Shown here piece by piece: positions 24,649-52,639 of a stretch of 64,000 nucleotides of DNA. Each line of letters begins with the position of its first letter. The stretch's first letter is position 1. The DNA comes from Schmidtea polychroa (lineage: Eukaryota), in contig CM097887.1 in assembly GCA_044892525.1 (NCBI GenBank), positions 53,196,001-53,260,000 of the forward strand, in the 5' to 3' direction. The translations under genes were made by a program, and so were the position numbers. Below the pieces are notes generated by a model, which saw only the letters and a list, made by a program, of their open reading frames with translations, was not told where the DNA came from and did no database searches.

Positions 24649-24852
24649 NNNNNNNNNNNNNNNNNNNNNNNNNNNNNNNNNNNNNNNNNNNNNNNNNNNN
24701 NNNNNNNNNNNNNNNNNNNNNNNNNNNNNNNNNNNNNNNNNNNNNNNNNNNNNNNNNNNNNNNNNNNNNNNNNNNNNNNNNNNNNNNNNNNNNNNNNNNN
24801 NNNNNNNNNNNNNNNNNNNNNNNNNNNNNNNNNNNNNNNNNNNNNNNNNNNN
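24649..24852. other. Assembly gap (204 N)
   Basis: N run; it hides the left junction and the first 20 bp of LTR1. Confidence 1.
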
Positions 24853-25639
24853 TAAAATAAATTTCACAGGGTACCAGAAAACAGAACAAAAAATGGTAAA
24901 ATCAATATAAGTACAAAATTAATTAAAATTTAATAAAAATTAAAAATCAATATTGAACGGGGGTATCGGGTATGGTTGAATGCCAAATTGTTAGACGAGG
25001 TTAGAAAGTATAATAAAAATGTAATAGGGTGACCATAGAAAAAGTTAATAAGGAAAAACAAATTAATTAAAATTAATTAATCTGTAATGGAAAGCCCGAG
25101 CCAATGGAAAGCCCGAGCCCATGGGAAACCCGAGCACTGAAGAAAACCCGATGCGCAGTGAGACCCGAGACACCAGATAAGGGAATAACAATTCGGATAA
25201 TAATCGCAGGGTAAATAAATTTAAATAATTGTCGAACCGTTCCAAATTTACTTAGGGTGCCCGGGGAAATAATTAATTTCATTTTGTTAGATAATTGGCC
25301 TCTTAAAAACAGTATAAAAGGAGAGCTTAGAAATGAGCAAGCCGCCATTTGGTCGAAGAGAAAAAGGAAAAATCTAAACAGAAAGTCCAGCAGGGACAAG
25401 TTAAAAGAGGAAAATTTGTGAGTTATAAAGAAGCTAAATCGTACAAGACAAGGTAATTACCCCTTGGGTTTCTTACCTTAGCGAACCAAATTCAAATTGA
25501 GAGAAAGGTGCAAATAGTGACAAATTGTAATTGTGATAAAAAGTGAATAAAGTTATTCTGTGTTGAGTTTTCGTTGATTTGGTAAAACAAGGACACGAGG
25601 AGTCAGAGACAGGACCGACTTACAAGTAAAAACTCAACA
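24853..25639 (+). repeat. LTR1 (first 20 bp in gap)
   Basis: Matches 38353-39139 and ends CAACA. TATAAAAG at 25313-25320; AATAAA at 25546-25551. Confidence 0.95.
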
Positions 25640-25642
25640 TTT

Positions 25643-25660
25643 TGGTGAGCCCGACGTGAT
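25643..25660 (+). promoter_or_regulatory. Primer binding site, tRNA-Trp
   Basis: TGGTGAGCCCGACGTGAT begins 3 nt after the LTR end. It is 17/18 identical to the classical tRNA-Trp PBS TGGTGACCCCGACGTGAT. Confidence 0.9.
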
Positions 25661-25744
25661 CAAGTCGGCAGTGAATATTGTGGAAAAGTGAAAAGAGAAA
25701 ATTGAAAATAATTGAAAGTTGAATATAATTGCCAAGATATAAAG

Positions 25745-25895
25745 TGAAATTAAATTTGTTAAAGAGAAATTAAATTGAAAAAGAAAAGAAAAAATTGAAA
25801 TTAAATTTGTTAAAGAGAAATTAAATTGAAAAAGAAAAGAAAAAAATTGAAATTAAATTTGTTAAAGAGAAATTAAATTGAAAAAAAAAAGAGAA
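25745..25895 (+). repeat. Three tandem copies of a 51-52 bp unit in the 5' leader
   Basis: tgaaattaaatttgttaaagagaaattaaattgaaaaa... starts at 25745, 25796 and 25848. Confidence 0.9.
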
Positions 25896-26106
25896 ATTGA
25901 ACAAATTGTGAAGTTGAAATAAAAGAGTGAAAGCTAAAAGATATTGAAATTAAGTTGTGGAAAAGTTACAAAAATTTATAAAAACTATTATTGGAAATTA
26001 ATTCAAAATTAAAACAAAAGGTAAAGTTAAAAATTGTAATTTTTTAAAATTTAGACAAGAAACAGTTGTCCAAGAGAAATTATACAATCTAAGAAGTAAA
26101 AAACAC

Positions 26107-29100
26107 TTGGAAAATATGGCGACGAGCAACTCAAATATCAATGAACAAATCTCAGTGTCTACTACTCAAGCGAACAATGGAAATGATTATGCCAGTTGTC
26201 AAAAGTTACCAGTTGAGCAATATGGAGGAGATCCAGTCCAATTTGTTGACTTTATGGCAGATTACTACATGTATGCCACAGCTTATGGATGGAGCCAAGC
26301 AACTATGGTACAACGTCTACCATTATATTTAAAAGGAGCTGCGCGAGAGGCTTGGCAACAGATTGACAAACGACCTATAGCAAATGATTGGACAAGATTG
26401 AAAGATGCATTGGCAGCCAAGTTGATTGGAGGAGATATAAAGAGAATGATGCGCCAAAAGTTCTACAGTCGAGTGCAAAAGCCCGAGGAATCCATAAGTG
26501 AGTTTGCTTATCATTTAACCACTCTTGCAGAGAAAGCGTTCGAAGTAAAGCCAGATCAAGAAGAAGTAGCAAAGCAAGTCAAAGAATTACTTCAGGACCA
26601 ATTTTTGACAGGAGTCAAGAAAGAAATCAAAAAGGCTTTATGTTTTGTTGATTTTACAAATTTTGATGACTTGATTAGAAAAGCCATGAGAATTGAAATG
26701 AATCTTAAAACGACTCAGTCAAAGGCGGAATCATTTGCGATTATCAATGAGCCTCGAGATAGATCTATAACCCCAGTCAGCGATAACTTGCTTCAAAGAT
26801 CAACCAGTCCATCTCCCAAGTTCAGAGTGAAATTTGAACAAAGAAAGTCAACAGACAGTCCAAATGAGGAAAGAGAAAGAACTCTACAATGCAGTCATTG
26901 CCAGAGAATGGGTCATCACATAAATCAATGCTGGTTTAAAAATAACATTCGAAGAAGCCCTAGTCCGGTTCAGTGTGATTACTGTCAAAGAAAAGGACAT
27001 AGCAATAGCCAATGTTGGTTCAAAAATAACGAACAGCGTAGTCCAAAGGGAATGCGGTCAGAATGGCTGAAAAGTAATGGTGAGAAAAGTTTTAACAGAA
27101 CGAATATCAGTAACCAGAGAACTAATGATAACATACAATGCTATAATTGTGGAAGGAAAGGACATGTCACTCGAAATTGTTTTGCAAGATCCAGATCTCT
27201 ATCAACATCACCCTCACCGCAAAGAGACAGAGTTAACTTACAAGGCCAAATCCAATGTCATTCCTGTAGAGGCTATGGACATATGGCTAGATCTTGTCCA
27301 AAGAGTAATAATATATTTCAAAGGCCGATATTAAAGAAGACGAGATTTCAGAAAGACAAATCGCAATCTGACAATATAGCTTTTGCGCAAACAGATGATT
27401 TTAACGAGAGGATTGAAAATGAGATGAAGCAGATGAGTAGACGCTTGGATCGATTAATGTGCAAATTCGAATCGGACGAAGAATTGAGTAACCACATGAT
27501 GTATGAGTCGCAATCAAAAGGATCAGAGGCAGATTCTAAAGAGAAATTGGATAAAGAAGACATAGAAAGAGAAAAAGTAACAATGATTATACTGAGGATC
27601 AACAGATTTATTAAAGAGAGAGCAACAGAAACATCTAAAGTAATCTCATCGCTAAAGGAATTGAGTCAAATGACAATGAGCATACAAAATTTGAAAAATG
27701 TAATTGAGTTATGTGCCGATTATTATGATACCAATTTAAAAGATGAAAAGGAAATTGAAAATGTGATGCAAATATTTGCGAAAACGTATCGAGAAAGTAC
27801 ATGGTTAGATTTTATTTTAATTAATGTTTTAGATGAAAATGAGAAAGAAGTAGCTTGCATTCGGTGTGAAGCAGGAGATTGTGTAGATGATTTAAAGAAT
27901 AGATTAGAAGAAAATAATGGGAAACAGATAATAGAATTGAAGTTTAAAAATCGATGCTTACGCAATGATGAGTTTTTAATTGATTGTGGTTTTATACCAG
28001 GAAATAAAAATAAAGTGATAGCAAAAATGACAAGACGTTATGAAAATGTAAAAAGCGATCCACAGAAAATTGTAAATGAGCTGAGAGAAGCTTTTGATGA
28101 GTGGAATAAAAATGCAATTGATGAAAAGTTGAAATTAGTAGAGGAAACGGAATTTGACGAAAATAGTAAATTAGAAATTGTAAATGTAGTACGTCCATAT
28201 GTATATAAAAACTCGAAATATAAAGAAATATTAAAAGGTTTATTACGAAAATTTGGAAAAGAGATTAGAGAGACCAGGATAGAATTGAAACCATTTGTAA
28301 TAGCGTTAGATTATAAAAATGAAGGAGAAATAGAGTATATAGAAGAACATTGGTGTACCAAGGTTGGTAAATTGCGAAAGAGAGCCGCTGAAAGAATGGG
28401 AAAGGATGGAATTATTCAATTGATATTTAAAAGTGAAGAATTAGATGACGATGAATATTTATACGATTGTGGGTTTATACCTCAAGAATTAGATGTAGAC
28501 GGATATTTATGTTCAGATACAGGATATTCACTAAATTATGTAATAGTAATTAAAAATCAGATATCAAATAAAGGATATGAGTCCGACAGGTCAAATGATG
28601 AGATAGAAAGGGATAATGAAAATGAAAGAAGAGTTGAAAATGAAGGTGTACTAGATAACAAGGACATAGGAACTAATGATAAAGATAAAGGTATAATAAC
28701 AGAAGTATTAAAGGAAGGGCAAGAAACCAAAAGTGAAGTGAATAGTGAAATAAAGACTAAAAAGCCTAGAACTTTGTATGAAATAAAAAAGAGCCTGGTG
28801 AAGTCAGAATTAGAAGTGGGTGAGACAAAAGAGTTATTAAAGAATTTAGATAAATTAATATATCCAATGTTCGAAATAAAATTGAATACAAAGTACGAAT
28901 TGGGAGACACAGTGAATGAAATGGAAAAGAAACTTCCTAGTGTTATGCAGAGATTTGGTGAAAATGATGACTTTTGTAATAGAGGGGTCATGAAAACTTT
29001 GACGAAAAATGGAATTGATAAAGAAGTAGTACTAACAAGCTTAACATATGCAGTTTTAGAGATAGGAGCTCATAAGATAATGGAATCAGATGAATTAGAG

Positions 29101-32100
29101 AATTTGATAGATGCAGCTGCTCGAGTTTTAAATGAATATTTAATGAATTGGATAAAAAGGAATGGAGGTTGGACCAAACTGGTAAAAGTGCTTACGATAA
29201 ATGAAAATAACGAAATTAATATACCCCATAAATCGCTAAATGGGAGAGTTAGCCCAATATTGAGAAAAACGATGGTATTTCCATGGGTAATGTTTATGAT
29301 AATTGTTTTGTGCGCAATAATTACCCAGACAACCTGTATGACTGCATTTGATTGTTCACAAACGGAAATGGGAAAAATTTATTCGGTAGTAGATGTGTCA
29401 GAATGTTCGGATGCATACCCGAGAAAACTAAAGGTTGAAAAAGATGTAAAATATCATGTATATCAAGAGTCTGATTTAAGACGAACGAAGGTTCGAGAAT
29501 GTATAGTCAAAAGTACCACATTTATATTTTATTGTTGGAAGTGGAGCCATACTTCATTGATAAAGATGTATACAATCCCAAGGCCAGTGGAAGTTATGCC
29601 AGAAAATTGTTTAGCAGCATTTCAAACAGAAGAATTGAAAATAAGTTCGAAAATTAAATTGAAGGCAAAAATAAATCATAGGACGAGAGAAACGGTGGTT
29701 ACGAAAGGATTAATGAAGCAAGACGGAGATTGTGAAGGGGAACCGTACAAAGTCAGTGGTAAAATTATTCAAAAAGCAGTAGTGATAGAAGAATATCTAA
29801 CGGAATTGAGAGAATTTGAAGGAGCTTTTGATGATGATACGGGGAAGTTACAGACCCACCCATTTTGTAATATGAAACAAAATAACTGTCAAACGGGGGG
29901 ATCAATTCTTGTTTATGAAGTAAAAACTAATGTATGTAACTTAGCGCATTTAAAAACGATGAATTTCAAAGAAATTAGTGGAGAGCAGTTTAGGGAAAGG
30001 CCTGACAATATTAATGTAAATTATGGAGTAAATATGACAATCAGATCAACGCCCGTTTGGACAAGAAAAACAGCGACTGTATTAATGTCGATAATTCCGA
30101 TGGACGCCATGCGTTTTATATTAAAGGAAGTTACCAATAAATGTGGTCAGACGGTATACTCCACAAATTACAAAGGAGTTTACGTATCAACAGTAAGAGT
30201 ACAGGAAGCTAAAACGAGAATTCATACGGGTGATATTAAATTAACCCATTACTTTAACAATAAAATTGATTACTTATTTCATTATAGTCAGAACACCATG
30301 GAGAATATCTATCGAGAAATAATCTTAAATGATTGTAAATTAAATAAAGAAATACTTCGAAATCGAATGGCAATGGCCATCACAAACCCAAATTTGGTTG
30401 CACCCATGTTAATATCAGAAAATGGAGTATTTGCGAGAATCTTCGGAGAAGCTTTATATAGTTATAAATGCAAGGAAGTGTCAGTAAAAATAATGAAATA
30501 CGAAAAATGTACTAATGAATTGCCAGTTAGCGTCGATGGGAAGATGCGATTTATGGAACCAATAACACGGATATTACTTGACGAAAACACAAAACCAAAA
30601 TTGCTCCAGTGCAATAGATTGCTAGCCCCGTTATATCTTTTGGCACCAGACTCTTGGGTAGCATTACCCGATTACCGAGGAGTTAGAACTCCAGATAAAT
30701 TGGAATTAATCAATTTAGAGTATTTAGTGAACTTTACATCCCTAAATAAAATGGCACAACTAGGTCTCTACGCAAGCGAGGATATAGAAGAAGCTCAAAG
30801 AAATTTATTATTTCCATCAAAGAAAGAACGGGTGATATCAGAAATGATTGATACAATATTACCAAACGGAGAGAGTAAAGTTAATTATGAATATCTCCTA
30901 ACGCCAGATCATTTCAAAAAAGCAACGTACAAAACGATGGAAAAGATTTGGGGAAAATTTATGTTCTTAGGACAAGCGTGTGCTGGTTTGATTGGCATCT
31001 ATGTGATCGTAGTAACAATAAAGGTGATACTATCTCAAATTTTATCTGCTCATAGAATATATAAAATATCCGGATGGTCGTGGAAAATAATTATTGGTTG
31101 TATTCCGTTTATAGCAAGATTTTTTATTACTCATCATCAATATAAAGAAATGGAGAATGTGAGAGCACAGTTAAAAACGGATCAAAAGAGTGAAGAATCC
31201 TTGTGTGAATCGAGGGATAGAAATAGTGGCAATAACACCAACAATGACAATGGCAGAAACGAGCAAATGTATTTTAGAAAAGAAATAATGAAAAGCGAGG
31301 TAAAACCAGAGTCACGGTGCCTACTAGAACAGATGCCAAAACTTACAGGAATCGACACTCTCTCAAAATGGTATACACCGGTATTCCTTCCAACAGCACC
31401 AACATATCTAAGTGAAAGGCTAAAAGAAATGAAACCAGTAGAACATATTAAACTAGAAGCTGAAAGGATTGAACCAACAAGTGCCGAAATAGAACGGAAA
31501 AACATGCTCGGATTACCATGTAGTTATGCGTTGATGACAATAGGAAATAGAGGCAAACAACCTCGAACAAATATACTATTTAACGAGAGAAAGGTCAAAG
31601 CCTTGTTAGACTCCGGTTCCAGTCATACTATAGTGTCAGATAAACTGTTGACAAGGGAAGAGAGAGCAAAGATGAAACCGACGAATAAAATTATTAAATC
31701 AATGTCTCACAATGTACTGAATATAATCGGGAAGCTAGAAGTCAAATTAATTATTGGTAATCAAGAAATAACACATTATGTGTCAGTAATGAGTAAAAGC
31801 CCTGTTGAATGTCTAATTGGTATGGATGTTATGGAGCAACTGCGAGGAATTGCGCTGGATCTGACAACAGGAAAATTAATAAAGGGACAATTAGATACAG
31901 TTGCAAATAAACCAAGAGAAGTTGTTTTAAATCAAACGTTGGAAATACCAGCAAGAAGCGAAATAATATGTTATGCTAGTGTAGCAAACACGTCAGATGA
32001 CGAATGTGTTTTCGAACCCAGTCGAAAACTAGTAGAGAAATACGAATTGCCAATGTGCGACGAGATAGTACAGGTAAAAGATCAGGCAGTCCCAGTGAGA

Positions 32101-35100
32101 ATGGCTAATCTTAGCACAAAATCTATCCAAATGAAACCTAACACGAAGTTAGGAAAGTTAATGAAATTTAAAACAGAAGAAGCCCAAAAATTACCGAGAA
32201 ACATTAAAATTTATAGAAAACCACAAGTGACGAGCAATGATTTGACAGACGCACAAAAACAACAGTTTATGGCATTATTAAAAAAGTACAAAAGAGTATT
32301 TGCAAAGCACGAGTACGATTTGGGACTTACCCAGGTGATCGAACATGAGATACCACTACTCGATGAAACTCCTATTAAATTACGACCGTATAGAATCCCT
32401 TATATACATCAAGAGGAAAGTGATAGACAGATAAAAGCGATGAAAGAGTTTGACATAATAAGAGACAGTTCATCACCATTCTCATCCTCAATAGTAGTAG
32501 TCAAAAAGAAAGACGGCGATTTACGGTTTTGTGTGGATTATAGAAAATTGAATCAGGCTACAAGAAAAGACCCCTACCCTATTCCAGTTCCACCGGAAAT
32601 GTTTGATCAAATGGGAGAAGTACAATTCATCACAGTAATCGATTTGAATAAGGGATATAATCAATTTAAAGTAAAAGAAGAAGATAGAAGGAAAACGGCA
32701 TTTTCAGATGGTAAAGGTTTGTACGAATTCAATGTGTTACCATTTGGCTTAACGGGAGCGCCAGCCACGTTCCAGCGAGGTATGAATTTTGTATTAAGAG
32801 ACATCCCACACGCATTAGTTTATATTGATGATATAATAATATTTTCGAATAATTTTCAGGAACATTTGGAAGATGTAGAAACAGTATTCCAAAGATTGTT
32901 AAAGGCGAATTTAAAAATAAAACCCTCAAAATGTGAATGGGGGAAATCAGAGGTAGTCTATGTTGGTCATATTATATCCCGAAGAGGATTACAGCCAAAC
33001 CCAGAAAATGTAGAAAAAATTAAAAATTATCCAATTCCAAAAAATGTAGATCATGTTAGACAATTTCTCGGATTAGCCAGTTATTATAGAAAATTCATTA
33101 AAAATTTTGCGCATGTAGCACAACCCCTGAACATATTATTAAAAAAGCAGGCTCAATTTAAATGGACAAAAACACAACAGGAAGCGTTCGAATCGTTGAA
33201 AGAAAGTTTGATTAAAAAACCAATATTGAGATGTCCAAATTTTAAAATACCATTTATCCTAATGACAGATGCGAGCAATTTTGCGTTGGGCGCAGTGCTA
33301 GGACAACAGGTTGAAGGAGAAAGAGATCACGTTATCGCATATGCGAGTAGAACTTTGAAACCGCATGAAAAGAATTATTCTACGATTGAAAAAGAAACGT
33401 TGGCATTAGTTTATGGAATAACTACATTTCGACAGTATTTAGTTGGGAGAAGATTTGTTGTCTTTACGGACCATAACCCTTTACAATGGCTCATGAAGCA
33501 TAGAGATTCAACAAGTAAGTTGATTAGATGGTCAATCGCACTACAGGAATATGATTTTGAAATCAAATACCGTACGGGTAAATCAAATGCAAATGCAGAC
33601 ACACTGTCGAGAATCCCTGAGGAAAATAATAATAATAATGAAAAAACGAACTATAATGATACAATATTTATGGTAATTAAATCAGCAAATAATATAAAGG
33701 AATTACAATATGATCAAGAAAATGATGAGGAACTAAATCAATTACGAAAAAATGCAGTAACAATTAAAAAGGAGAGTGATTGGAAACATATTGTTGAGGA
33801 AAAACATAAATATATTATCCACGAGGGTTTATTAAAATGTGTAAAAAATGAAAATTTGCTAATTATAGTTCCAGCAAAACATCGAGAAGCATTATTGTTG
33901 ATTTACCACGATGGAGCACTAGGAGGACATTTATCGGCTCGAAAAACATTATCAAGACTGAAATTGAAGTATTATTGGGAGACAATGGAACAAGATGTCA
34001 AACAATGGTGCCATACTTGTAAAGTATGTTTGACAAGACGAAATACAGGAAGGAAAATAAAAGTTCCACTAAGACCTATGCCGGTGCCAGCAGCGCCAAT
34101 GGAAATGACAGCAATGGACATTGTCGGTCCATTGCCGGAAACAATAAATGGCAATAAATATATTGTTGTATTTTGCGACTATCTAACTAAGTGGCCAGAA
34201 GCATATGCCATGCAAAATCAAAAGGCAGAAACAGTTGCAAAAATATTAGTAGAAAACATTATTTTCCGATATGGAGCACCAAAGAAATTACTTACAGATC
34301 AGGGAACGAATTTTCAAAGTGAATTATTTAGTTCGATATCGGAGCTATTTGGTATATTAAAACTTAGTACATCACCATATCATCCACAAACAGATGGCCT
34401 AGTAGAAAGGTTTAACGGAACATTAATTAATATGATATCATCTTATGTAAATCGAAAACAAAGAGATTGGGATTTATTTATCAAACCATGTTTATTCGCA
34501 TATCGAAACGCAGTTAATGAAAGCACTGGTGAAACACCCTTTTATCTTATGTATCTACGGCGAAATAATATGCCAATTGATTTGAAATTTCAAACACCTA
34601 TATCACAGTATATGGATATATCCGATTATAAAGTAATCATGCATGAGAGATTACAGTCAGTGTGGGCTCAAGCTGGTTTAAAAATAAGACATAGCCAAGA
34701 AACGTATAAAGAATCCTACTACAAGAAAGCACATGCTCATAATATTAAAATAGGAGATTTAGTCTATGTGAATAAACCAGAACCAGAAAAGGGCTTGTCA
34801 CCAAAGTTACAACGACCGTTTAAAGGACCGTATATTGTATGTGATACAACAGAAACCAACCTCAAATTACATCCACAGAATAATAAAAAGGCTGGGACAA
34901 TTATAGTTCATGCAAATCGTTGTAAGAAAGTGCCGGCAATGGAGAGTGATAGATATCCATTAAGATCGAAAAAGAACAAATCAGTAGAAGAAAAAGTGGT
35001 CAAGCAAAAAGTTATTAAAAACCCAGTACCCTTAGGATATACCACGAAAGTCTTATTGATAACAACAATGATGCTACTAAATGTTTTGGGAACAAAGGCA

Positions 35101-36261
35101 GGTAGATCTTTTCCAAAGTATGCAATAAAAAGGGTCCCATTATTGGATAAAATTCATATATATTCAACATGTACCCAAATAGTATGGTTTTATCTGTGTG
35201 GGTCAACGGAAGAAATAGAAATAAGTAATCTATTAAATCACTTTAACCCACCTGTAAGATTGAATTTCAATAAAAATATTTTCGTGGCTCGTCAATTAAC
35301 AGTCAATTATGAATACACTTGGCAAATAACAGAGTTACTATTTCAAAATAATAATACAAAAATACGTAATATAATCCAAATTGAAATATTAACAAAAAAT
35401 TTAAACAGTCTGGTTTCAATAGAACCAGTAGTGAATGGAATCGACGTATATTGGGAACCCCACGAATCCCAAAAAGTGAAATTAATATTCCAAAATAATA
35501 TTATCGATACATTAAACATCAGAAAACCCTTTGTCCATTACAATAATTTAAAATTAAATCAAACGTATGATATCGTTGTGCAATATTATGAAAAGCTTTT
35601 GCGGGAAAATGGTACCGAAATCGATAACCAGTGGGTAAAAATTGAGTCTACTCGACAATCCATAAAATTAGAAAATGAACCAAATCGTATTATTTTACGA
35701 TATGATAATCAAAAATGGATAGCCACACGACAAGCGATAACCAATAACAAAGTGGAAATTTATTATTGCGGAAAACTGCAAGCTATATTGCAAGGTAATA
35801 TTACATCTAAAATATTAACATTTCAGCAAATACGTTCAAAGTCAACTTCAAAAATTGTGATTGTAAAGATAAAATATTATCAACGTGCTTTTCATCCCGA
35901 TCATTGGAAAATCGTTCTAGTGGAAAGTAAATCTATTCGAGTACCATTTGATACAGCTGAGGTAGAAAGCTCAAAAAATATGCACAATTCATCAACCAAT
36001 GTGATTCATCAACTCATAAATGACATTAATTCTTCTTTTATTAATGGAACACAAATTCCAAGAAATAAAACTACATTCTCATTATCAAATGATTTTGAAA
36101 ATACTTATGTTATTTTGTCATCTATCATCATCAGTGTGACACCATTTTCCATTATCATTCTTCTCACTCTACTGATTTACTTTCAAAGACTGAACAGACA
36201 ATATGAATGTCAATCCAAGACCTCACAACCTTGGATTGTCTACGAGGAAACATGGGTCTAG
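26107..36261 (+). CDS. Gag-UBL-UBL-Bcl2-like-Env-PR-RT-RH-IN-membrane protein polyprotein, copy 1 (3384 aa; first ATG 26116)
   Basis: Retrotransposon Gag core; 4 CX2CX4HX4C knuckles (26890-27297); WIKRNGGW (29149); signal segment (29272-29337); Cys-rich glycoprotein with TM (29338-31131); LLDSGS (31609); YIDD (32821); TDAS..E..TDH (33268 onward); HHCC, DDE and GPY integrase (about 33850-34940); C-terminal TM (36109-36183). Confidence 0.97.
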   Translation: MENMATSNSNINEQISVSTTQANNGNDYASCQKLPVEQYGGDPVQFVDFMADYYMYATAYGWSQATMVQRLPLYLKGAAREAWQQIDKRPIANDWTRLKDALAAKLIGGDIKRMMRQKFYSRVQKPEESISEFAYHLTTLAEKAFEVKPDQEEVAKQVKELLQDQFLTGVKKEIKKALCFVDFTNFDDLIRKAMRIEMNLKTTQSKAESFAIINEPRDRSITPVSDNLLQRSTSPSPKFRVKFEQRKSTDSPNEERERTLQCSHCQRMGHHINQCWFKNNIRRSPSPVQCDYCQRKGHSNSQCWFKNNEQRSPKGMRSEWLKSNGEKSFNRTNISNQRTNDNIQCYNCGRKGHVTRNCFARSRSLSTSPSPQRDRVNLQGQIQCHSCRGYGHMARSCPKSNNIFQRPILKKTRFQKDKSQSDNIAFAQTDDFNERIENEMKQMSRRLDRLMCKFESDEELSNHMMYESQSKGSEADSKEKLDKEDIEREKVTMIILRINRFIKERATETSKVISSLKELSQMTMSIQNLKNVIELCADYYDTNLKDEKEIENVMQIFAKTYRESTWLDFILINVLDENEKEVACIRCEAGDCVDDLKNRLEENNGKQIIELKFKNRCLRNDEFLIDCGFIPGNKNKVIAKMTRRYENVKSDPQKIVNELREAFDEWNKNAIDEKLKLVEETEFDENSKLEIVNVVRPYVYKNSKYKEILKGLLRKFGKEIRETRIELKPFVIALDYKNEGEIEYIEEHWCTKVGKLRKRAAERMGKDGIIQLIFKSEELDDDEYLYDCGFIPQELDVDGYLCSDTGYSLNYVIVIKNQISNKGYESDRSNDEIERDNENERRVENEGVLDNKDIGTNDKDKGIITEVLKEGQETKSEVNSEIKTKKPRTLYEIKKSLVKSELEVGETKELLKNLDKLIYPMFEIKLNTKYELGDTVNEMEKKLPSVMQRFGENDDFCNRGVMKTLTKNGIDKEVVLTSLTYAVLEIGAHKIMESDELENLIDAAARVLNEYLMNWIKRNGGWTKLVKVLTINENNEINIPHKSLNGRVSPILRKTMVFPWVMFMIIVLCAIITQTTCMTAFDCSQTEMGKIYSVVDVSECSDAYPRKLKVEKDVKYHVYQESDLRRTKVRECIVKSTTFIFYCWKWSHTSLIKMYTIPRPVEVMPENCLAAFQTEELKISSKIKLKAKINHRTRETVVTKGLMKQDGDCEGEPYKVSGKIIQKAVVIEEYLTELREFEGAFDDDTGKLQTHPFCNMKQNNCQTGGSILVYEVKTNVCNLAHLKTMNFKEISGEQFRERPDNINVNYGVNMTIRSTPVWTRKTATVLMSIIPMDAMRFILKEVTNKCGQTVYSTNYKGVYVSTVRVQEAKTRIHTGDIKLTHYFNNKIDYLFHYSQNTMENIYREIILNDCKLNKEILRNRMAMAITNPNLVAPMLISENGVFARIFGEALYSYKCKEVSVKIMKYEKCTNELPVSVDGKMRFMEPITRILLDENTKPKLLQCNRLLAPLYLLAPDSWVALPDYRGVRTPDKLELINLEYLVNFTSLNKMAQLGLYASEDIEEAQRNLLFPSKKERVISEMIDTILPNGESKVNYEYLLTPDHFKKATYKTMEKIWGKFMFLGQACAGLIGIYVIVVTIKVILSQILSAHRIYKISGWSWKIIIGCIPFIARFFITHHQYKEMENVRAQLKTDQKSEESLCESRDRNSGNNTNNDNGRNEQMYFRKEIMKSEVKPESRCLLEQMPKLTGIDTLSKWYTPVFLPTAPTYLSERLKEMKPVEHIKLEAERIEPTSAEIERKNMLGLPCSYALMTIGNRGKQPRTNILFNERKVKALLDSGSSHTIVSDKLLTREERAKMKPTNKIIKSMSHNVLNIIGKLEVKLIIGNQEITHYVSVMSKSPVECLIGMDVMEQLRGIALDLTTGKLIKGQLDTVANKPREVVLNQTLEIPARSEIICYASVANTSDDECVFEPSRKLVEKYELPMCDEIVQVKDQAVPVRMANLSTKSIQMKPNTKLGKLMKFKTEEAQKLPRNIKIYRKPQVTSNDLTDAQKQQFMALLKKYKRVFAKHEYDLGLTQVIEHEIPLLDETPIKLRPYRIPYIHQEESDRQIKAMKEFDIIRDSSSPFSSSIVVVKKKDGDLRFCVDYRKLNQATRKDPYPIPVPPEMFDQMGEVQFITVIDLNKGYNQFKVKEEDRRKTAFSDGKGLYEFNVLPFGLTGAPATFQRGMNFVLRDIPHALVYIDDIIIFSNNFQEHLEDVETVFQRLLKANLKIKPSKCEWGKSEVVYVGHIISRRGLQPNPENVEKIKNYPIPKNVDHVRQFLGLASYYRKFIKNFAHVAQPLNILLKKQAQFKWTKTQQEAFESLKESLIKKPILRCPNFKIPFILMTDASNFALGAVLGQQVEGERDHVIAYASRTLKPHEKNYSTIEKETLALVYGITTFRQYLVGRRFVVFTDHNPLQWLMKHRDSTSKLIRWSIALQEYDFEIKYRTGKSNANADTLSRIPEENNNNNEKTNYNDTIFMVIKSANNIKELQYDQENDEELNQLRKNAVTIKKESDWKHIVEEKHKYIIHEGLLKCVKNENLLIIVPAKHREALLLIYHDGALGGHLSARKTLSRLKLKYYWETMEQDVKQWCHTCKVCLTRRNTGRKIKVPLRPMPVPAAPMEMTAMDIVGPLPETINGNKYIVVFCDYLTKWPEAYAMQNQKAETVAKILVENIIFRYGAPKKLLTDQGTNFQSELFSSISELFGILKLSTSPYHPQTDGLVERFNGTLINMISSYVNRKQRDWDLFIKPCLFAYRNAVNESTGETPFYLMYLRRNNMPIDLKFQTPISQYMDISDYKVIMHERLQSVWAQAGLKIRHSQETYKESYYKKAHAHNIKIGDLVYVNKPEPEKGLSPKLQRPFKGPYIVCDTTETNLKLHPQNNKKAGTIIVHANRCKKVPAMESDRYPLRSKKNKSVEEKVVKQKVIKNPVPLGYTTKVLLITTMMLLNVLGTKAGRSFPKYAIKRVPLLDKIHIYSTCTQIVWFYLCGSTEEIEISNLLNHFNPPVRLNFNKNIFVARQLTVNYEYTWQITELLFQNNNTKIRNIIQIEILTKNLNSLVSIEPVVNGIDVYWEPHESQKVKLIFQNNIIDTLNIRKPFVHYNNLKLNQTYDIVVQYYEKLLRENGTEIDNQWVKIESTRQSIKLENEPNRIILRYDNQKWIATRQAITNNKVEIYYCGKLQAILQGNITSKILTFQQIRSKSTSKIVIVKIKYYQRAFHPDHWKIVLVESKSIRVPFDTAEVESSKNMHNSSTNVIHQLINDINSSFINGTQIPRNKTTFSLSNDFENTYVILSSIIISVTPFSIIILLTLLIYFQRLNRQYECQSKTSQPWIVYEETWV

Positions 36262-36622: not shown

Positions 36623-38065
36623 GTGAATATTTCAGTAATGGAACAAATCCAAAGAACTAGAGCAATTTATGATGGATATTTGAAGATACACCGCAACCAC
36701 GTGGGACAAGATGCCATCACCATCAATGACAACCTGAAAATCCCAAACTACTTGAGGGTGGACGACAGAAAAATGAAAACTCAAATTTTTAAAGTGAGCC
36801 GGAAATCGGTGAAAATAATAGAAGAAGATGAAATCAAGGATGGAAATGAGTACACGCTACACGTGATCAAAGGGAAAGTGGAGGTAATAGACGAACGACA
36901 AAAAGTCTATTGGGAATTACACCAAGGATCATCGTGGAAACTGCAGAAAGAAACCTTGAGGAAAAGGTTGAGAGCATCCAATGAAGATTCAAGAGTTGTT
37001 GTGGAAACACGAAGCCCGAACGAGGAAAATGAAATTCCACAAACCACTTCAAAATTGCCAGATGATCCAACCATGCTTCCAATTACTACAGAAATGCTGA
37101 AAAGAAGATGGTCATTTATTCGAAAAGAAATGAGTTTGGAGGAGATACGGAACCGAATTGTGTTTATGGATGCAGAATATGGAACATCAGAAAATAATAA
37201 AATGATTCCATTGTCAATAGCGATGATGAATTATGAAGGGAAAATAATTAAAAATTCATATTTGACACCAAGAGGAAGATTGCGTCATTTCAATTCCAGC
37301 ATTCATGGTATCACAGAGATTGCCAGTAGAAACCAATGCGACCAGTACACGGAGATGCGAGAAGTGCAAAAACTAACTGTTGGAAAAATTTTAGTGGGAC
37401 ATGATCTTCATGCAGAATTGGAATATTTGAAAATCTGGACAAATCAGTTGTACGGAATTAGGGATTTAGCAACAGCACAGGCACTCCAACTGAAAGGAAT
37501 AACAAGGAAAGGAGAATTCTTTAAACTTAAAACAGTGGTTGAAGAAGTACTCGGAGAACAAACACAAACTGGTATTCACTCAGCATTGGAAGATGTCAAA
37601 AAAGTACGGAGAGTGTACAGGGAAATTGAGAATTTATGGGAAGATGATGTAAAAATCCAGAAAATAGTCCCATCAAAGAAATATTCTTTAGCCGAATATC
37701 AAAAACTTCATGCGATGGACAAAATACCAACAACGAGTGGAACATCCTGTGAGATAGTAGAACAAGTTGATCTAACAATTGAGGAACAAATGGAAATTGA
37801 CGAAGCACCGTTGAAATGGGCAACGGAAGAATATTTGGAGCCGATCAAGGAAAGCCTCGAAATGATAATAAGTTCATCGATCCACAGAATTCCGGCATCA
37901 TTCGAACATGGGCCTATACTTCATTTAGAGAATAGGAAAAGAAAATCGACAACAAAAATCGAAGCCAGCGAATCCATCATGGTGAATGGAATAGTCTATT
38001 ATCGGGAGAAAACATATATCCGCTACAAGAGTGAGGCGGGAGAAATAGAATTAAAAATTGATTAA
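36623..38065 (+). CDS. ORF2, copy 1: REX4/ISG20-like DEDDh 3'-5' exonuclease with N-terminal beta-rich domain (first ATG 36638)
   Basis: VFMDAEYG (Exo I, 37169), IHGIT, ILVGHDLHAEL (Exo II, 37397), IRDL, GIHSALEDV (Exo III, 37577). Confidence 0.9.
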   Translation: MNISVMEQIQRTRAIYDGYLKIHRNHVGQDAITINDNLKIPNYLRVDDRKMKTQIFKVSRKSVKIIEEDEIKDGNEYTLHVIKGKVEVIDERQKVYWELHQGSSWKLQKETLRKRLRASNEDSRVVVETRSPNEENEIPQTTSKLPDDPTMLPITTEMLKRRWSFIRKEMSLEEIRNRIVFMDAEYGTSENNKMIPLSIAMMNYEGKIIKNSYLTPRGRLRHFNSSIHGITEIASRNQCDQYTEMREVQKLTVGKILVGHDLHAELEYLKIWTNQLYGIRDLATAQALQLKGITRKGEFFKLKTVVEEVLGEQTQTGIHSALEDVKKVRRVYREIENLWEDDVKIQKIVPSKKYSLAEYQKLHAMDKIPTTSGTSCEIVEQVDLTIEEQMEIDEAPLKWATEEYLEPIKESLEMIISSSIHRIPASFEHGPILHLENRKRKSTTKIEASESIMVNGIVYYREKTYIRYKSEAGEIELKID

Positions 38066-38319
38066 TTATTGTTATATATGTTATGATTAATAAAAACTTT
38101 CCCTCGTCTTATATATATAGTAACAAATTATTATTATTATTATTATTGTTATTGTTACTATTATCATATTATTATTATTACTATTATTATTAATTCACTA
38201 CTATTATTAGTGATACTATTATTATAAAATTATTATAAAGTATCGTTATGGTATTGAGAATACTCTTCCATCTTAATAAATAATTAATAATCGAATAGAT
38301 TCGAGGGCGAATCTTAATT

Positions 38320-38330
38320 AAAGGGGGAGA
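38320..38330 (+). promoter_or_regulatory. Polypurine tract, copy 1
   Basis: AAAGGGGGAGA, separated by 2 nt from the LTR start TGTTG at 38333. Confidence 0.9.
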
Positions 38331-38332
38331 TA

Positions 38333-39139
38333 TGTTGGGGTTAGAGCAAAAATAAAATAAATTTCACAGGGTACCAGAAAACAGAACAAAAAATGGTAAA
38401 ATCAATATAAGTACAAAATTAATTAAAATTTAATAAAAATTAAAAATCAATATTGAACGGGGGTATCGGGTATGGTTGAATGCCAAATTGTTAGACGAGG
38501 TTAGAAAGTATAATAAAAATGTAATAGGGTGACCATAGAAAAAGTTAATAAGGAAAAACAAATTAATTAAAATTAATTAATCTGTAATGGAAAGCCCGAG
38601 CCAATGGAAAGCCCGAGCCCATGGGAAACCCGAGCACTGAAGAAAACCCGATGCGCAGTGAGACCCGAGACACCAGATAAGGGAATAACAATTCGGATAA
38701 TAATCGCAGGGTAAATAAATTTAAATAATTGTCGAACCGTTCCAAATTTACTTAGGGTGCCCGGGGAAATAATTAATTTCATTTTGTTAGATAATTGGCC
38801 TCTTAAAAACAGTATAAAAGGAGAGCTTAGAAATGAGCAAGCCGCCATTTGGTCGAAGAGAAAAAGGAAAAATCTAAACAGAAAGTCCAGCAGGGACAAG
38901 TTAAAAGAGGAAAATTTGTGAGTTATAAAGAAGCTAAATCGTACAAGACAAGGTAATTACCCCTTGGGTTTCTTACCTTAGCGAACCAAATTCAAATTGA
39001 GAGAAAGGTGCAAATAGTGACAAATTGTAATTGTGATAAAAAGTGAATAAAGTTATTCTGTGTTGAGTTTTCGTTGATTTGGTAAAACAAGGACACGAGG
39101 AGTCAGAGACAGGACCGACTTACAAGTAAAAACTCAACA
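38333..39139 (+). repeat. LTR2 (shared middle LTR, 807 bp)
   Basis: TGTTG...CAACA termini, preceded by the PPT and followed by the PBS. Confidence 0.97.
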
Positions 39140-39395: not shown

Positions 39396-39606
39396 ATTGA
39401 ACAAATTGTGAAGTTGAAATAAAAGAGTGAAAGCTAAAAGATATTGAAATTAAGTTGTGGAAAAGTTACAAAAATTTATAAAAACTATTATTGGAAATTA
39501 ATTCAAAATTAAAACAAAAGGTAAAGTTAAAAATTGTAATTTTTTAAAATTTAGACAAGAAACAGTTGTCCAAGAGAAATTATACAATCTAAGAAGTAAA
39601 AAACAC

Positions 39607-42600
39607 TTGGAAAATATGGCGACGAGCAACTCAAATATCAATGAACAAATCTCAGTGTCTACTACTCAAGCGAACAATGGAAATGATTATGCCAGTTGTC
39701 AAAAGTTACCAGTTGAGCAATATGGAGGAGATCCAGTCCAATTTGTTGACTTTATGGCAGATTACTACATGTATGCCACAGCTTATGGATGGAGCCAAGC
39801 AACTATGGTACAACGTCTACCATTATATTTAAAAGGAGCTGCGCGAGAGGCTTGGCAACAGATTGACAAACGACCTATAGCAAATGATTGGACAAGATTG
39901 AAAGATGCATTGGCAGCCAAGTTGATTGGAGGAGATATAAAGAGAATGATGCGCCAAAAGTTCTACAGTCGAGTGCAAAAGCCCGAGGAATCCATAAGTG
40001 AGTTTGCTTATCATTTAACCACTCTTGCAGAGAAAGCGTTCGAAGTAAAGCCAGATCAAGAAGAAGTAGCAAAGCAAGTCAAAGAATTACTTCAGGACCA
40101 ATTTTTGACAGGAGTCAAGAAAGAAATCAAAAAGGCTTTATGTTTTGTTGATTTTACAAATTTTGATGACTTGATTAGAAAAGCCATGAGAATTGAAATG
40201 AATCTTAAAACGACTCAGTCAAAGGCGGAATCATTTGCGATTATCAATGAGCCTCGAGATAGATCTATAACCCCAGTCAGCGATAACTTGCTTCAAAGAT
40301 CAACCAGTCCATCTCCCAAGTTCAGAGTGAAATTTGAACAAAGAAAGTCAACAGACAGTCCAAATGAGGAAAGAGAAAGAACTCTACAATGCAGTCATTG
40401 CCAGAGAATGGGTCATCACATAAATCAATGCTGGTTTAAAAATAACATTCGAAGAAGCCCTAGTCCGGTTCAGTGTGATTACTGTCAAAGAAAAGGACAT
40501 AGCAATAGCCAATGTTGGTTCAAAAATAACGAACAGCGTAGTCCAAAGGGAATGCGGTCAGAATGGCTGAAAAGTAATGGTGAGAAAAGTTTTAACAGAA
40601 CGAATATCAGTAACCAGAGAACTAATGATAACATACAATGCTATAATTGTGGAAGGAAAGGACATGTCACTCGAAATTGTTTTGCAAGATCCAGATCTCT
40701 ATCAACATCACCCTCACCGCAAAGAGACAGAGTTAACTTACAAGGCCAAATCCAATGTCATTCCTGTAGAGGCTATGGACATATGGCTAGATCTTGTCCA
40801 AAGAGTAATAATATATTTCAAAGGCCGATATTAAAGAAGACGAGATTTCAGAAAGACAAATCGCAATCTGACAATATAGCTTTTGCGCAAACAGATGATT
40901 TTAACGAGAGGATTGAAAATGAGATGAAGCAGATGAGTAGACGCTTGGATCGATTAATGTGCAAATTCGAATCGGACGAAGAATTGAGTAACCACATGAT
41001 GTATGAGTCGCAATCAAAAGGATCAGAGGCAGATTCTAAAGAGAAATTGGATAAAGAAGACATAGAAAGAGAAAAAGTAACAATGATTATACTGAGGATC
41101 AACAGATTTATTAAAGAGAGAGCAACAGAAACATCTAAAGTAATCTCATCGCTAAAGGAATTGAGTCAAATGACAATGAGCATACAAAATTTGAAAAATG
41201 TAATTGAGTTATGTGCCGATTATTATGATACCAATTTAAAAGATGAAAAGGAAATTGAAAATGTGATGCAAATATTTGCGAAAACGTATCGAGAAAGTAC
41301 ATGGTTAGATTTTATTTTAATTAATGTTTTAGATGAAAATGAGAAAGAAGTAGCTTGCATTCGGTGTGAAGCAGGAGATTGTGTAGATGATTTAAAGAAT
41401 AGATTAGAAGAAAATAATGGGAAACAGATAATAGAATTGAAGTTTAAAAATCGATGCTTACGCAATGATGAGTTTTTAATTGATTGTGGTTTTATACCAG
41501 GAAATAAAAATAAAGTGATAGCAAAAATGACAAGACGTTATGAAAATGTAAAAAGCGATCCACAGAAAATTGTAAATGAGCTGAGAGAAGCTTTTGATGA
41601 GTGGAATAAAAATGCAATTGATGAAAAGTTGAAATTAGTAGAGGAAACGGAATTTGACGAAAATAGTAAATTAGAAATTGTAAATGTAGTACGTCCATAT
41701 GTATATAAAAACTCGAAATATAAAGAAATATTAAAAGGTTTATTACGAAAATTTGGAAAAGAGATTAGAGAGACCAGGATAGAATTGAAACCATTTGTAA
41801 TAGCGTTAGATTATAAAAATGAAGGAGAAATAGAGTATATAGAAGAACATTGGTGTACCAAGGTTGGTAAATTGCGAAAGAGAGCCGCTGAAAGAATGGG
41901 AAAGGATGGAATTATTCAATTGATATTTAAAAGTGAAGAATTAGATGACGATGAATATTTATACGATTGTGGGTTTATACCTCAAGAATTAGATGTAGAC
42001 GGATATTTATGTTCAGATACAGGATATTCACTAAATTATGTAATAGTAATTAAAAATCAGATATCAAATAAAGGATATGAGTCCGACAGGTCAAATGATG
42101 AGATAGAAAGGGATAATGAAAATGAAAGAAGAGTTGAAAATGAAGGTGTACTAGATAACAAGGACATAGGAACTAATGATAAAGATAAAGGTATAATAAC
42201 AGAAGTATTAAAGGAAGGGCAAGAAACCAAAAGTGAAGTGAATAGTGAAATAAAGACTAAAAAGCCTAGAACTTTGTATGAAATAAAAAAGAGCCTGGTG
42301 AAGTCAGAATTAGAAGTGGGTGAGACAAAAGAGTTATTAAAGAATTTAGATAAATTAATATATCCAATGTTCGAAATAAAATTGAATACAAAGTACGAAT
42401 TGGGAGACACAGTGAATGAAATGGAAAAGAAACTTCCTAGTGTTATGCAGAGATTTGGTGAAAATGATGACTTTTGTAATAGAGGGGTCATGAAAACTTT
42501 GACGAAAAATGGAATTGATAAAGAAGTAGTACTAACAAGCTTAACATATGCAGTTTTAGAGATAGGAGCTCATAAGATAATGGAATCAGATGAATTAGAG

Positions 42601-51832: not shown

Positions 51833-52639
51833 TGTTGGGGTTAGAGCAAAAATAAAATAAATTTCACAGGGTACCAGAAAACAGAACAAAAAATGGTAAA
51901 ATCAATATAAGTACAAAATTAATTAAAATTTAATAAAAATTAAAAATCAATATTGAACGGGGGTATCGGGTATGGTTGAATGCCAAATTGTTAGACGAGG
52001 TTAGAAAGTATAATAAAAATGTAATAGGGTGACCATAGAAAAAGTTAATAAGGAAAAACAAATTAATTAAAATTAATTAATCTGTAATGGAAAGCCCGAG
52101 CCAATGGAAAGCCCGAGCCCATGGGAAACCCGAGCACTGAAGAAAACCCGATGCGCAGTGAGACCCGAGACACCAGATAAGGGAATAACAATTCGGATAA
52201 TAATCGCAGGGTAAATAAATTTAAATAATTGTCGAACCGTTCCAAATTTACTTAGGGTGCCCGGGGAAATAATTAATTTCATTTTGTTAGATAATTGGCC
52301 TCTTAAAAACAGTATAAAAGGAGAGCTTAGAAATGAGCAAGCCGCCATTTGGTCGAAGAGAAAAAGGAAAAATCTAAACAGAAAGTCCAGCAGGGACAAG
52401 TTAAAAGAGGAAAATTTGTGAGTTATAAAGAAGCTAAATCGTACAAGACAAGGTAATTACCCCTTGGGTTTCTTACCTTAGCGAACCAAATTCAAATTGA
52501 GAGAAAGGTGCAAATAGTGACAAATTGTAATTGTGATAAAAAGTGAATAAAGTTATTCTGTGTTGAGTTTTCGTTGATTTGGTAAAACAAGGACACGAGG
52601 AGTCAGAGACAGGACCGACTTACAAGTTAAAACTCAACA
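51833..52639 (+). repeat. LTR3 (3' LTR, 807 bp)
   Basis: TGTTG...CAACA followed by TATATA flank. It has one visible difference from LTR1/2 (T at 52628 versus A). Confidence 0.97.

What the first reader, a model, noticed from the sequence alone, without database searches (positions are those of the whole stretch)
29272..31140. Chuvirus-type (class III, gB-like) env fused in frame between gag and pol
Seen: a hydrophobic signal (VFPWVMFMIIVLCAIITQTTC), then AFDC...DVSEC, YC..WSHTS, CG.TVYSTN, YFNNKIDY and GE.LYSYKC..V.V...C.NELPV...FMEPITRIL. The ectodomain has 14 Cys and two sequons (NMT 30031, NFT 30730), followed by a TM and a second hydrophobic segment. Established: this pattern characterises Chuviridae/Monjiviricetes-like glycoproteins, which have been captured by LTR elements, usually as a 3' ORF. 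Here env lies upstream of the protease with no stop or frameshift.
Basis: partly seen in the sequence, partly recalled or inferred. Interest (0 to 1): 0.9.

Follow-up and report, generated by a model that had tools for sequence, protein, structure and literature searches.

The report
Flatworm retroelement with built-in envelope gene
This is a retrovirus-like jumping gene of a planarian flatworm whose membrane-fusion (envelope) protein sits in the middle of one long protein, an arrangement already published, and it also carries a second predicted surface protein behind the integrase that may help its particles attach to cells.

Summary
Bases 29272-31140 are residues 1091-1713 of one stop-free 3,419-codon frame in a Ty3/gypsy provirus, present as a tandem LTR-internal-LTR-internal-LTR. 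The segment scores 291 bits against PF24664 (cut-off 27). Its model (pLDDT 92) matches herpesvirus gB and chu-like glycoproteins.

The arrangement is not new. In-frame env between BCL2 and protease was reported for planarian Burro (PMC6431247). GAG-ENV-POL gB-type elements were catalogued in flatworms, nematodes and bryozoans (PMC13524379). This env is about 79% identical (198/251, by eye) to Smed_errantivirus_1.

Not found in the papers I could read: (1) a second predicted signal peptide, FN3-like ectodomain and TM after integrase. A signal/ectodomain/hydrophobic-anchor module stands there in 3 of 3 families compared in this genome and 7 of 8 database relatives, with ectodomains that differ. 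(2) An ISG20-like exonuclease ORF2.

Best model: one multi-pass polyprotein cut by signal peptidase and the element's protease, giving an enveloped particle with a class III fusogen and possibly an attachment protein. No expression, cleavage or fusion is shown.

The parts
24833..25639 (+). 5' LTR (807 bp by period; its first 20 bases read N)
   Evidence: 0 differences to the middle LTR over 787 comparable bases
25643..25660 (+). Primer-binding site for host tRNA-Trp (second copy 39143-39160)
   Evidence: Matches the 3' end of tRNA-Trp(CCA) genes found in G000
26002..36261 (+). ORF1, single polyprotein frame, 3,419 codons stop to stop (3,381 aa from Met at 26116)
26179..27297 (+). Gag: capsid and four CCHC zinc knuckles
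   Evidence: Retrotrans_gag E 2e-5 and zf-CCHC; 4 CCHC motifs
27559..28551 (+). Two tandem units, each a helical part plus a ubiquitin-like domain
   Evidence: Internal repeat E 4e-9; a profile of 6 repeats hits ISG15/ubiquitin at E 3e-7
28792..29187 (+). Bcl-2-like domain directly before the env signal peptide
   Evidence: PF00452 E 6.5e-6, 27.1 bits, below the cut-off of 31.4; also hit in 2 of 2 sister families; weak PDB Bcl-2 hits
29275..29337 (+). Internal signal peptide of Env (predicted; cleavage before residue 1113)
   Evidence: Hydropathy; 19 of 20 aligned elements have a small residue at -1 of the same site
29338..30960 (+). Env ectodomain, PF24664, class III (gB-like) fold, 14 Cys, 2 sequons
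30976..31041 (+). Env transmembrane helix
   Evidence: KD 2.44; conserved in relatives
31078..31128 (+). Second hydrophobic stretch with central Cys-x-Pro; inferred not to cross the membrane
   Evidence: KD17 1.63, amphipathic moment up to 0.49; parity argument is inference
31555..34941 (+). Pol: protease (DSG at 1870), short dUTPase-position insert, RT (YxDD at 2274), RNase H, integrase
   Evidence: Pfam; motifs; the insert has no Pfam hit
35035..35100 (+). Second predicted internal signal peptide after integrase
   Evidence: Weak hydropathy (KD19 1.45; KD17 1.62); equivalent segment in both sister families
35101..35949 (+). Ectodomain of about three FN3-like beta-sandwiches, followed by a Ser/Thr/Asn-rich stalk
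   Evidence: Model pLDDT 58; Foldseek E 8e-7 to fibronectin 10-12; VIA Z 8.3 to fibronectin and CD45, top row Z 8.7 a bacterial glycan-binding protein; Atlas FN3 0.93 with low recognition; 8 sequons between signal and TM
36109..36183 (+). C-terminal transmembrane helix, then a tail of about 25 residues
   Evidence: KD 2.56
36638..38065 (+). ORF2, 475 aa from ATG: weak cupin-like N-terminus and ISG20/ISG20L2-like DEDDh exonuclease domain; splice-acceptor-like AG just upstream
   Evidence: phmmer E 1.2e-7 to ISG20L2 and 2e-6 to ISG20; Atlas RNase_T 0.86; Cupin_3 E 0.07; acceptor seen by eye in window and sister family
38321..38329 (+). Polypurine tract
   Evidence: sequence
38333..39139 (+). Shared middle LTR, 807 bp, TG...CA ends
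39502..49761 (+). Second copy of ORF1 (env at 42772-44640)
   Evidence: Identical protein; 0 differences in 12,693 internal bases
50138..51565 (+). Second copy of ORF2
51833..52639 (+). 3' LTR, followed by a TA run
   Evidence: 1 difference to the middle LTR; flank

Best explanation
A recently inserted gB-type GAG-ENV-POL Ty3/gypsy provirus (errantivirus) of a planarian, a compact relative of Burro and a sister family of Smed_errantivirus_1. SHOWN: the gene order, the fusogen family and predicted fold, LTRs, tRNA-Trp primer site, multi-copy families, and purifying selection on env. INFERRED: ORF1 is translated as one multi-pass polyprotein at the ER. Gag-Ubl-Ubl-Bcl2 stays cytosolic and is tethered by the first internal signal. 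Signal peptidase frees the Env ectodomain into the lumen, and the Env TM stops transfer. The next hydrophobic stretch lies along the membrane, so PR-RT-RH-IN is cytosolic and is released by the element's protease. The second signal sends the FN3-like protein into the lumen and the last TM anchors it. Capsid, enzymes and both membrane proteins would be made on one membrane and bud as an enveloped particle. Env would fuse through two hydrophobic loops as other class III proteins do, probably as a trimer and perhaps at low pH. Bcl-2, Ubl and the separately expressed exonuclease are accessory cargo that may dampen cell death or RNA defence.
For: One frame with the domain order CA-NC-Ubl-Ubl-Bcl2-Env-PR-RT-RH-IN. 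PF24664 at 291 bits; model pLDDT 92, pTM 0.77; all 38 Foldseek PDB rows shown are herpesvirus gB. Env is 82% identical to a sister family with pN 0.10 against pS 0.73 (dN/dS about 0.04, dS near saturation). All 7 long database hits carry PF24664 before a protease. A signal-like segment with a small -1 residue is present in 19 of 20 elements. Four strong or moderate hydrophobic segments alternate signal-TM-signal-TM, which puts Pol in the cytosol and both sequon-bearing domains in the lumen only if the fifth, weaker stretch does not cross (inference). 17 of 52 sister-family matches have open frames of 3,413 aa or more. The same order is published for Burro and for Smed_errantivirus_1-6.
Against: No protein-level evidence of cleavage, topology, particles or fusion. 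A single frame implies equal amounts of Gag, Env and Pol, which is unusual for retroelements (own knowledge) and may be offset by splicing or early termination that I could not see. The second signal is weak by hydropathy. The Bcl-2 match is below the Pfam cut-off. In the window's own family only the two window units of 28 env matches have the full frame. They carry a private substitution at residue 1179, in the inferred first fusion loop, where 27 of the other 28 loci share another residue and 1 has a stop, so this particular copy may fuse poorly. Global rmsd to gB is high (8-14 A in the postfusion rows) and identity is 10-13%.
Confidence: 0.7

Rival explanations
1. The frame is continuous but is not used as one polyprotein: splicing or early 3' end formation makes separate Gag, Gag-Pol (env skipped) and Env messages, as in ordinary errantiviruses.
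For: ORF2 seems to need a spliced RNA (acceptor-like AG before its ATG in two families), so the element probably splices. Retroelements normally make far more Gag than Pol (own knowledge).
Against: The frame is kept without stop across both env borders in three families of this genome and in the long relatives, which separate messages would not require. The internal signal and stop-transfer layout works without splicing.
Confidence: 0.15
2. Env no longer makes infectious particles. It and the FN3-like protein act inside the cell or at its surface, for example to anchor assembly at the ER, for cell-to-cell passage or for receptor blocking, and the element spreads as an intracellular retrotransposon.
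For: No particle or infection data here. PMC13524379 treats copy number as a sign of expansion, not of activity. This copy has a private change in an inferred fusion loop.
Against: All 14 Cys and a confidently predicted full gB-like fold are kept under strong purifying selection. Env is more conserved between families than protease (82% against 79%). Another family in this genome is 246/251 identical in env to Smed_errantivirus_2 (by eye).
Confidence: 0.12
3. The tandem duplication, and possibly the perfect integrity of the frame, is an assembly artefact.
For: The two units differ by 1 base in 13.5 kb, and other copies of this family are 2-6% diverged or more and broken.
Against: This bears only on the duplication. 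The gag-env-pol frame recurs at many independent loci and in database proteins. Unequal crossover between the LTRs of one provirus gives the same pattern (inference).
Confidence: 0.03

Closest known systems
Smed_errantivirus_1 to _6, HSV/gB-type GAG-ENV-POL errantiviruses of Schmidtea mediterranea (Chary and Hayashi, PMC13524379)
   Same: GAG-ENV-POL order, gB-type env, gypsy pol. Env domains I-II are 198/251 identical to Smed_errantivirus_1 without gaps (by eye). A third family in G000 is 246/251 identical to Smed_errantivirus_2.
   Different: A separate family at about 79%. The paper lists no LTR or primer tRNA for these six. Its main text has 0 occurrences of fibronectin, Bcl, exonuclease, polyprotein or accessory, so the second membrane protein, ORF2 and the topology are not described there as far as searched.
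Burro / GYPSM1 giant gypsy elements of planarians (as described in PMC6431247)
   Same: Single ORF1 with Gag, CCHC knuckles, Ubl, BCL2, in-frame env, PR, dUTPase-position insert, RT, RH, IN.
   Different: Burro exceeds 30 kb with a 4,873-aa ORF1 and has MATH, BIR and ankyrin motifs. This provirus is 14,307 bp with 3,381 aa and no such Pfam hits. That paper likened the env to F-type/mononegavirus fusion proteins; here it is class III.
Non-canonical nematode endogenous retroviruses (Sacco et al. 2022, doi 10.1099/jgv.0.001739)
   Same: Env before pol, RNA-virus glycoprotein in a metavirus (title and citation in PMC13524379 only).
   Different: Paper not held, so its cargo and any post-integrase protein could not be compared.
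Anakin BEL/Pao elements and Chuviridae/Jingchuvirales glycoproteins (PMC7642597, listing only; mentioned in PMC12440569 and PMC13524379)
   Same: Same fusogen family (PF24664); BFVD best hits are chu-like glycoproteins at 17-21% identity.
   Different: Anakin is BEL/Pao; this element is gypsy with env in the middle. Polyprotein envs group apart from 31 of the 32 short or stand-alone glycoproteins in the tree.
Herpesvirus gB (class III fusogen)
   Same: Predicted fold, with a long central helix and beta-hairpin fusion domain.
   Different: 10-13% identity and a shorter ectodomain. gB needs gH/gL and a receptor-binding partner (own knowledge); whether the FN3-like protein plays such a part here is unknown.
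Bdelloid Vesta/Juno LTR elements with DEDDy exonuclease ORF3 (PMC5408684)
   Same: An accessory 3' ORF encoding a DEDD exonuclease.
   Different: Those are RNase D-like DEDDy and replace env. ORF2 here is ISG20-like DEDDh and comes in addition to env.

Membership tests
Ty3/gypsy (Metaviridae) LTR retrotransposon | LTRs with TG...CA ends, tRNA primer site, polypurine tract | tested here: met
Ty3/gypsy (Metaviridae) LTR retrotransposon | Pol order PR-RT-RH-IN with gypsy-type Pfam domains | tested here: met
Ty3/gypsy (Metaviridae) LTR retrotransposon | 4-6 bp target-site duplication | tested here: inconclusive
   The left junction reads N and the right flank is a TA run
Ty3/gypsy (Metaviridae) LTR retrotransposon | RT phylogeny within gypsy | not tested
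   No RT tree with named references was built
PF24664 Monjiviricetes fusion glycoprotein / class III fusogen | HMM score above the curated cut-off | tested here: met
   291 bits against 27
PF24664 Monjiviricetes fusion glycoprotein / class III fusogen | gB-like fold | tested here: met
   (predicted monomer; Z 10.0, rmsd 10.9, 436 aligned)
PF24664 Monjiviricetes fusion glycoprotein / class III fusogen | Signal peptide and C-terminal TM | tested here: met
   Hydropathy and -1/-3 pattern only
PF24664 Monjiviricetes fusion glycoprotein / class III fusogen | Trimer and membrane-fusion activity | not testable with these tools
   Three full ectodomains exceed the 1,000-residue limit of the complex tool; no assay possible
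Chuviridae glycoprotein in the strict sense (captured from a chuvirus) | Nested among chuvirus glycoproteins in a rooted tree | tested here: inconclusive
   Quick midpoint-rooted tree: 19 polyprotein envs plus one 748-aa protein (probably a fragment) form a branch at SH-aLRT 98; stand-alone rows are unnamed; 62 of 114 rows left out
HSV/gB-type GAG-ENV-POL errantivirus (PMC13524379) | [quoted passage not shown] | tested here: met
HSV/gB-type GAG-ENV-POL errantivirus (PMC13524379) | Several near-identical intact copies (typical, not required) | tested here: inconclusive
   Only the tandem pair in this family (2 of 28 matches); 17 of 52 in the sister family
Burro / GYPSM1 | Ubl and BCL2 followed by in-frame env before PR | tested here: met
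Burro / GYPSM1 | Giant size (over 30 kb, ORF1 about 4,900-5,100 aa) | tested here: not met
   14,307 bp and 3,381 aa
Burro / GYPSM1 | MATH, BIR and ankyrin cargo | tested here: inconclusive
   No such Pfam hit in ORF1 or ORF2 at E up to 0.1; HHpred not available
Classical errantivirus layout (gag-pol-env) | Env as a separate ORF after pol | tested here: not met
   Env lies inside ORF1 before PR

The most novel reading that the evidence does not exclude
GAG-ENV-POL gypsy elements are two-glycoprotein retrovirus-like viruses. A single polyprotein, processed like that of a flavivirus, yields a conserved class III fusogen and, from a slot behind integrase, an exchangeable type I attachment or immune-decoy protein (FN3-like here, Ig or Cys-rich in relatives) that sets cell tropism, as gD or gH/gL do for herpesvirus gB. 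Bcl-2, ISG15-like Ubl repeats and an ISG20-like nuclease would counter host defence. The slot is filled in 3 of 3 families compared in this genome and 7 of 8 database relatives that run past integrase, and it evolves faster than env (58% against 82% identity) while under purifying selection.
Probability: 0.3. Interest if true: 0.75.

Novelty: new member of a known kind. Interest (0 to 1): 0.42.

Why it matters
The headline feature is already in print, so on its own it adds a family and confirms the class III fold. What could matter is the rest of the anatomy. How a gag-env-pol frame can work has not been discussed in the sections I read, and the alternating signal/TM layout gives a testable answer. 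A second surface protein in a fixed post-integrase slot would be a new design for retrovirus-like elements and a candidate tropism determinant. Planarians are an experimental model, and these families are abundant and partly intact, so RNA, proteomic and fusion tests are feasible. They would address whether env-bearing gypsy elements outside insects are infectious.

Tried and rejected
Sequence search of the env against the PDB: 0 hits as a single sequence; with a 117-sequence profile only weak gB hits, best E 0.0025.

Post-integrase protein: no Pfam hit for the window member at E up to 5, no PDB sequence hit, none of 2,819 candidates among proteins of 226-720 aa (longer forms not searched). 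phmmer found no similarity between it and the post-integrase proteins of database relatives, so only position and layout are shared, not sequence.

Complex prediction of Env ectodomain with the FN3-like ectodomain: no answer, score 0.00, alignments not used; no evidence either way.

Expression: no RNA holder listed. Four runs laid were contigs only, three guessed RNA and one of unrecorded kind. None of the 15 joints shown (of 43) has GT..AG ends, which cannot show absence of splicing. Run X2 has poly(A) loose ends at 38872 and 38906 in the LTR and at 41414 in ORF1, a weak hint only.

Related loci: none confirmed among 55 stretches in metagenome contigs; the viral-contig scan with alignment A1 could not run. 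ORF2 context in database relatives was therefore not checked. The third family has no ORF of 150 aa or more in the 3.8 kb after ORF1.

Slippery heptamers are frequent in this AT-rich frame (49 in all) and were not taken as evidence of frameshifting. No furin-type R-x-K/R-R site in the Env ectodomain. dUTPase identity of the PR-RT insert: no Pfam hit.

BEL/Pao (Anakin) rejected: gypsy-type pol domains, no BEL-specific Pfam hits. Burro itself rejected on size. The careful tree did not finish; the quick tree is reported. Earlier-scan look-ups by sequence and by words were empty. Grohme 2018 and Sacco 2022 are not held.
Full report
OBSERVATION. The finding lies in a stop-free frame at 26002-36261 (3,419 codons) that is repeated identically at 39502-49761. 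It covers residues 1091-1713. The quoted motifs, the 14 ectodomain cysteines, both sequons (30031, 30730) and the two strong hydrophobic peaks are present. The segment scores 291 bits against PF24664 Monjiviricetes_fusion, cut-off 27, E 1.3e-86.

THE ELEMENT. Repeats with a period of 13,500 bp define LTR-internal-LTR-internal-LTR from 24833 to 52639. The LTRs are 807 bp with TG...CA ends. The middle and right LTR differ at 1 base, the left and middle at 0 of 787 comparable bases, and the internal regions at 0 of 12,693, so the insertion is very recent and the tandem is either an LTR crossover or an assembly duplication. The primer site matches host tRNA-Trp. The target-site duplication cannot be checked because the left junction reads N. 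ORF1 reads capsid, four zinc knuckles, two helical+ubiquitin-like units (profile hit to ISG15/ubiquitin, E 3e-7), a Bcl-2-like domain (27.1 bits, below the cut-off of 31.4, hit in all three families tested), Env, PR, RT, RNase H and integrase, then 439 more residues. ORF2 (36638-38065) has an ISG20/ISG20L2-like DEDDh nuclease domain (E 1.2e-7); in that alignment one acidic site residue is Glu where ISG20 has Asp. The host is inferred to be a Schmidtea-like planarian from env identity to published elements; the species was not determined.

FOLD. AlphaFold2 with 117 sequences gave pLDDT 92 and pTM 0.77. All Foldseek PDB rows shown are herpesvirus gB, best E 6e-15, TM-scores 0.39-0.46. VIA-align gives Z 10.0, rmsd 10.9, 436 aligned. 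In BFVD the best hits are chu-like virus glycoproteins, E 9e-38, TM-score up to 0.77, 17-21% identity. The class III reading is sound. In a quick tree of 52 rows (all polyprotein envs and every third shorter one; 62 of 114 rows left out), 19 of 20 polyprotein envs plus one 748-aa protein (probably a fragment) form a branch at SH-aLRT 98. The tree has no outgroup and its stand-alone rows are unnamed, so the donor and direction are not shown.

COPIES AND SELECTION. Of 80 scored env matches in G000, 28 belong to the window's family (87-100%), and only the two window units have the full frame. The other 52 belong to a sister family (82-83%), of which 17 have open frames of 3,413 aa or more (lower bounds). 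A third family (env 70%, integrase 86%) has the same ORF1 layout. Against the sister family, identity and approximate dN/dS are: RT 95%, Env 82% and 0.04, PR 79% and 0.10, FN3-like 58% and 0.28, Bcl-2 53% and 0.20, exonuclease 71% (pN 0.18, pS 0.75) (own counting script, synonymous sites near saturation). The window units have a private substitution at residue 1179 in the inferred first fusion loop; 27 of the other 28 loci share another residue and 1 has a stop. Its effect is unknown.

RELATIVES. Seven long database proteins carry the same env at 34-42% identity before a protease, and 1,304 cluster representatives match at E up to 0.001. A signal-like segment ending in a small residue precedes the mature N-terminus in 19 of 20 elements aligned.

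WHAT IS KNOWN. PMC6431247 (passages, and section 7 read whole) describes planarian Burro with Ubl, BCL2, then env, then PR, and calls it the first in-frame env between gag and pol. PMC13524379 (abstract, passages, first parts of sections 5 and 6, section 14, supplement rows) finds gB-type GAG-ENV-POL elements in Nematoda, Bryozoa and Platyhelminthes, predicts trimers for representatives, and lists six in S. mediterranea. By eye, the window env is 198/251 and the sister family 199/251 identical to Smed_errantivirus_1, and the third family is 246/251 identical to Smed_errantivirus_2. Sacco 2022 and Grohme 2018 were not held and are known to me only by citation. I also saw passages of the bioRxiv version (supplements not opened), PMC5408684 and PMC12125541, the first part of PMC12440569, and PMC7642597 as a listing only.

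WHAT MAY BE UNDESCRIBED. After integrase the frame continues with a weak signal-like segment (3012-3033), a beta-rich ectodomain and stalk with 8 sequons, and a TM (3370-3394). The model is poor (pLDDT 58; the other four models 48 or lower) but matches tandem FN3 chains (Foldseek E 8e-7; VIA Z 8.3 for the middle domain, near the level that common sandwiches reach). The Atlas gives FN3 at 0.93 with low recognition. Pfam and PDB sequence searches give nothing. FN3-like is thus likely, not proven. The module is present in all three families compared in G000 (58% and 41% identity). Among 8 database relatives that extend past integrase, 7 have a signal-like segment, an ectodomain and a later hydrophobic segment (weak and terminal in P0007); P0002 lacks it. 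The ectodomains are not alignable to ours, and P0007 has an Ig domain. This looks like a fixed slot with exchangeable cargo. The terms fibronectin, Bcl, exonuclease, polyprotein and accessory do not occur in the main text of PMC13524379, nor fibronectin in the preprint. Searches listed no paper on it (in one search, 0 of the 20 listed, of 133, held 'fibronectin type III'). The two unread papers, Burro figure details and unseen supplements may describe it.

MECHANISM. Shown: order, families, predicted folds, conservation. Inferred: signal 1 (in to out), Env TM (out to in), a Cys-Pro-containing stretch that stays on the cytosolic leaflet, signal 2 and TM 2. This parity keeps Gag and Pol cytosolic and both sequon-bearing domains lumenal; a crossing by the fifth stretch would invert Pol. 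The Env signal could double as the tail anchor of the Bcl-2-like domain and tether Gag to the membrane, since the first Met is not followed by a myristoylation glycine (sequence). The analogy to flavivirus polyproteins and to herpesvirus partner glycoproteins is from my own knowledge. ORF2 probably comes from a spliced RNA (acceptor-like AG before the ATG in two families). None of this is tested at RNA or protein level.

VERDICT. Real, correctly read, and a new family of a published kind. Interest 0.42, carried mostly by the post-integrase membrane protein and the topology model. Novel case probability 0.3, interest 0.75 if true.

Noticed in passing
window 34954-34968 and 26083-26097: A Y-x-L-R motif like the foamy-virus Gag chromatin-binding sequence (peptide seen in PMC12125541) follows integrase in the window and in 7 of 8 relatives (0.007 expected per 120 aa; pattern chosen after seeing it). 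It also stands in frame upstream of the first AUG in all three families, which hints at a non-AUG start and at nucleosome tethering.
   Followed up: partly
G000:C4 from about 55,022,400 (L037): A tandem array of tRNA-Trp genes with a 284-bp period; 821 genome-wide matches to the pattern, 99 of the 100 listed in this array; 6 of 6 units in L037 called tRNA-Trp. This is the primer tRNA of the element.
   Followed up: partly
L033:3750-5372: The env of a third family is 246/251 identical (by eye) to Smed_errantivirus_2, while two other families are about 79% to Smed_errantivirus_1. If the host is not S. mediterranea, this is a candidate for recent transfer between planarian species; host species not determined.
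   Followed up: no
L035:1-3150: A sister-family copy in which a deletion joins the FN3-like protein in frame to the ORF2 exonuclease.
   Followed up: no
window 60653-61054 (-), 59686-60129 (-), 52842-53384 (-): Nuclear-receptor C4 zinc finger (PF00105 E 5e-29). Two further minus-strand open stretches might be later exons, the last ending about 200 bp from the right LTR, but they gave no Pfam hit and the last no PDB hit.
   Followed up: partly
window 9914-10423 and 6273-6581 (+): Exon of an FAD-dependent monooxygenase (PF01494 E 3e-8; COQ6-like by my recall) and a possible earlier exon without a Pfam hit.
   Followed up: partly
window 63110-63628 (+), 1297-1707 (+), 18062-22517: PiggyBac-like transposase piece (PF13843), hAT dimerisation piece, and long inverted repeats about 3.4-4.3 kb apart that suggest a DNA transposon.
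   Followed up: no
P0001-P0005, P0010, P0018: Several relatives carry two to four protease-like domains in one polyprotein, some after integrase; the window element has one.
   Followed up: no
window 25683-25947 and 38127-38268: A 51-nt A-rich tandem repeat in the 5' leader and an ATT-rich repeat before the polypurine tract.
   Followed up: no
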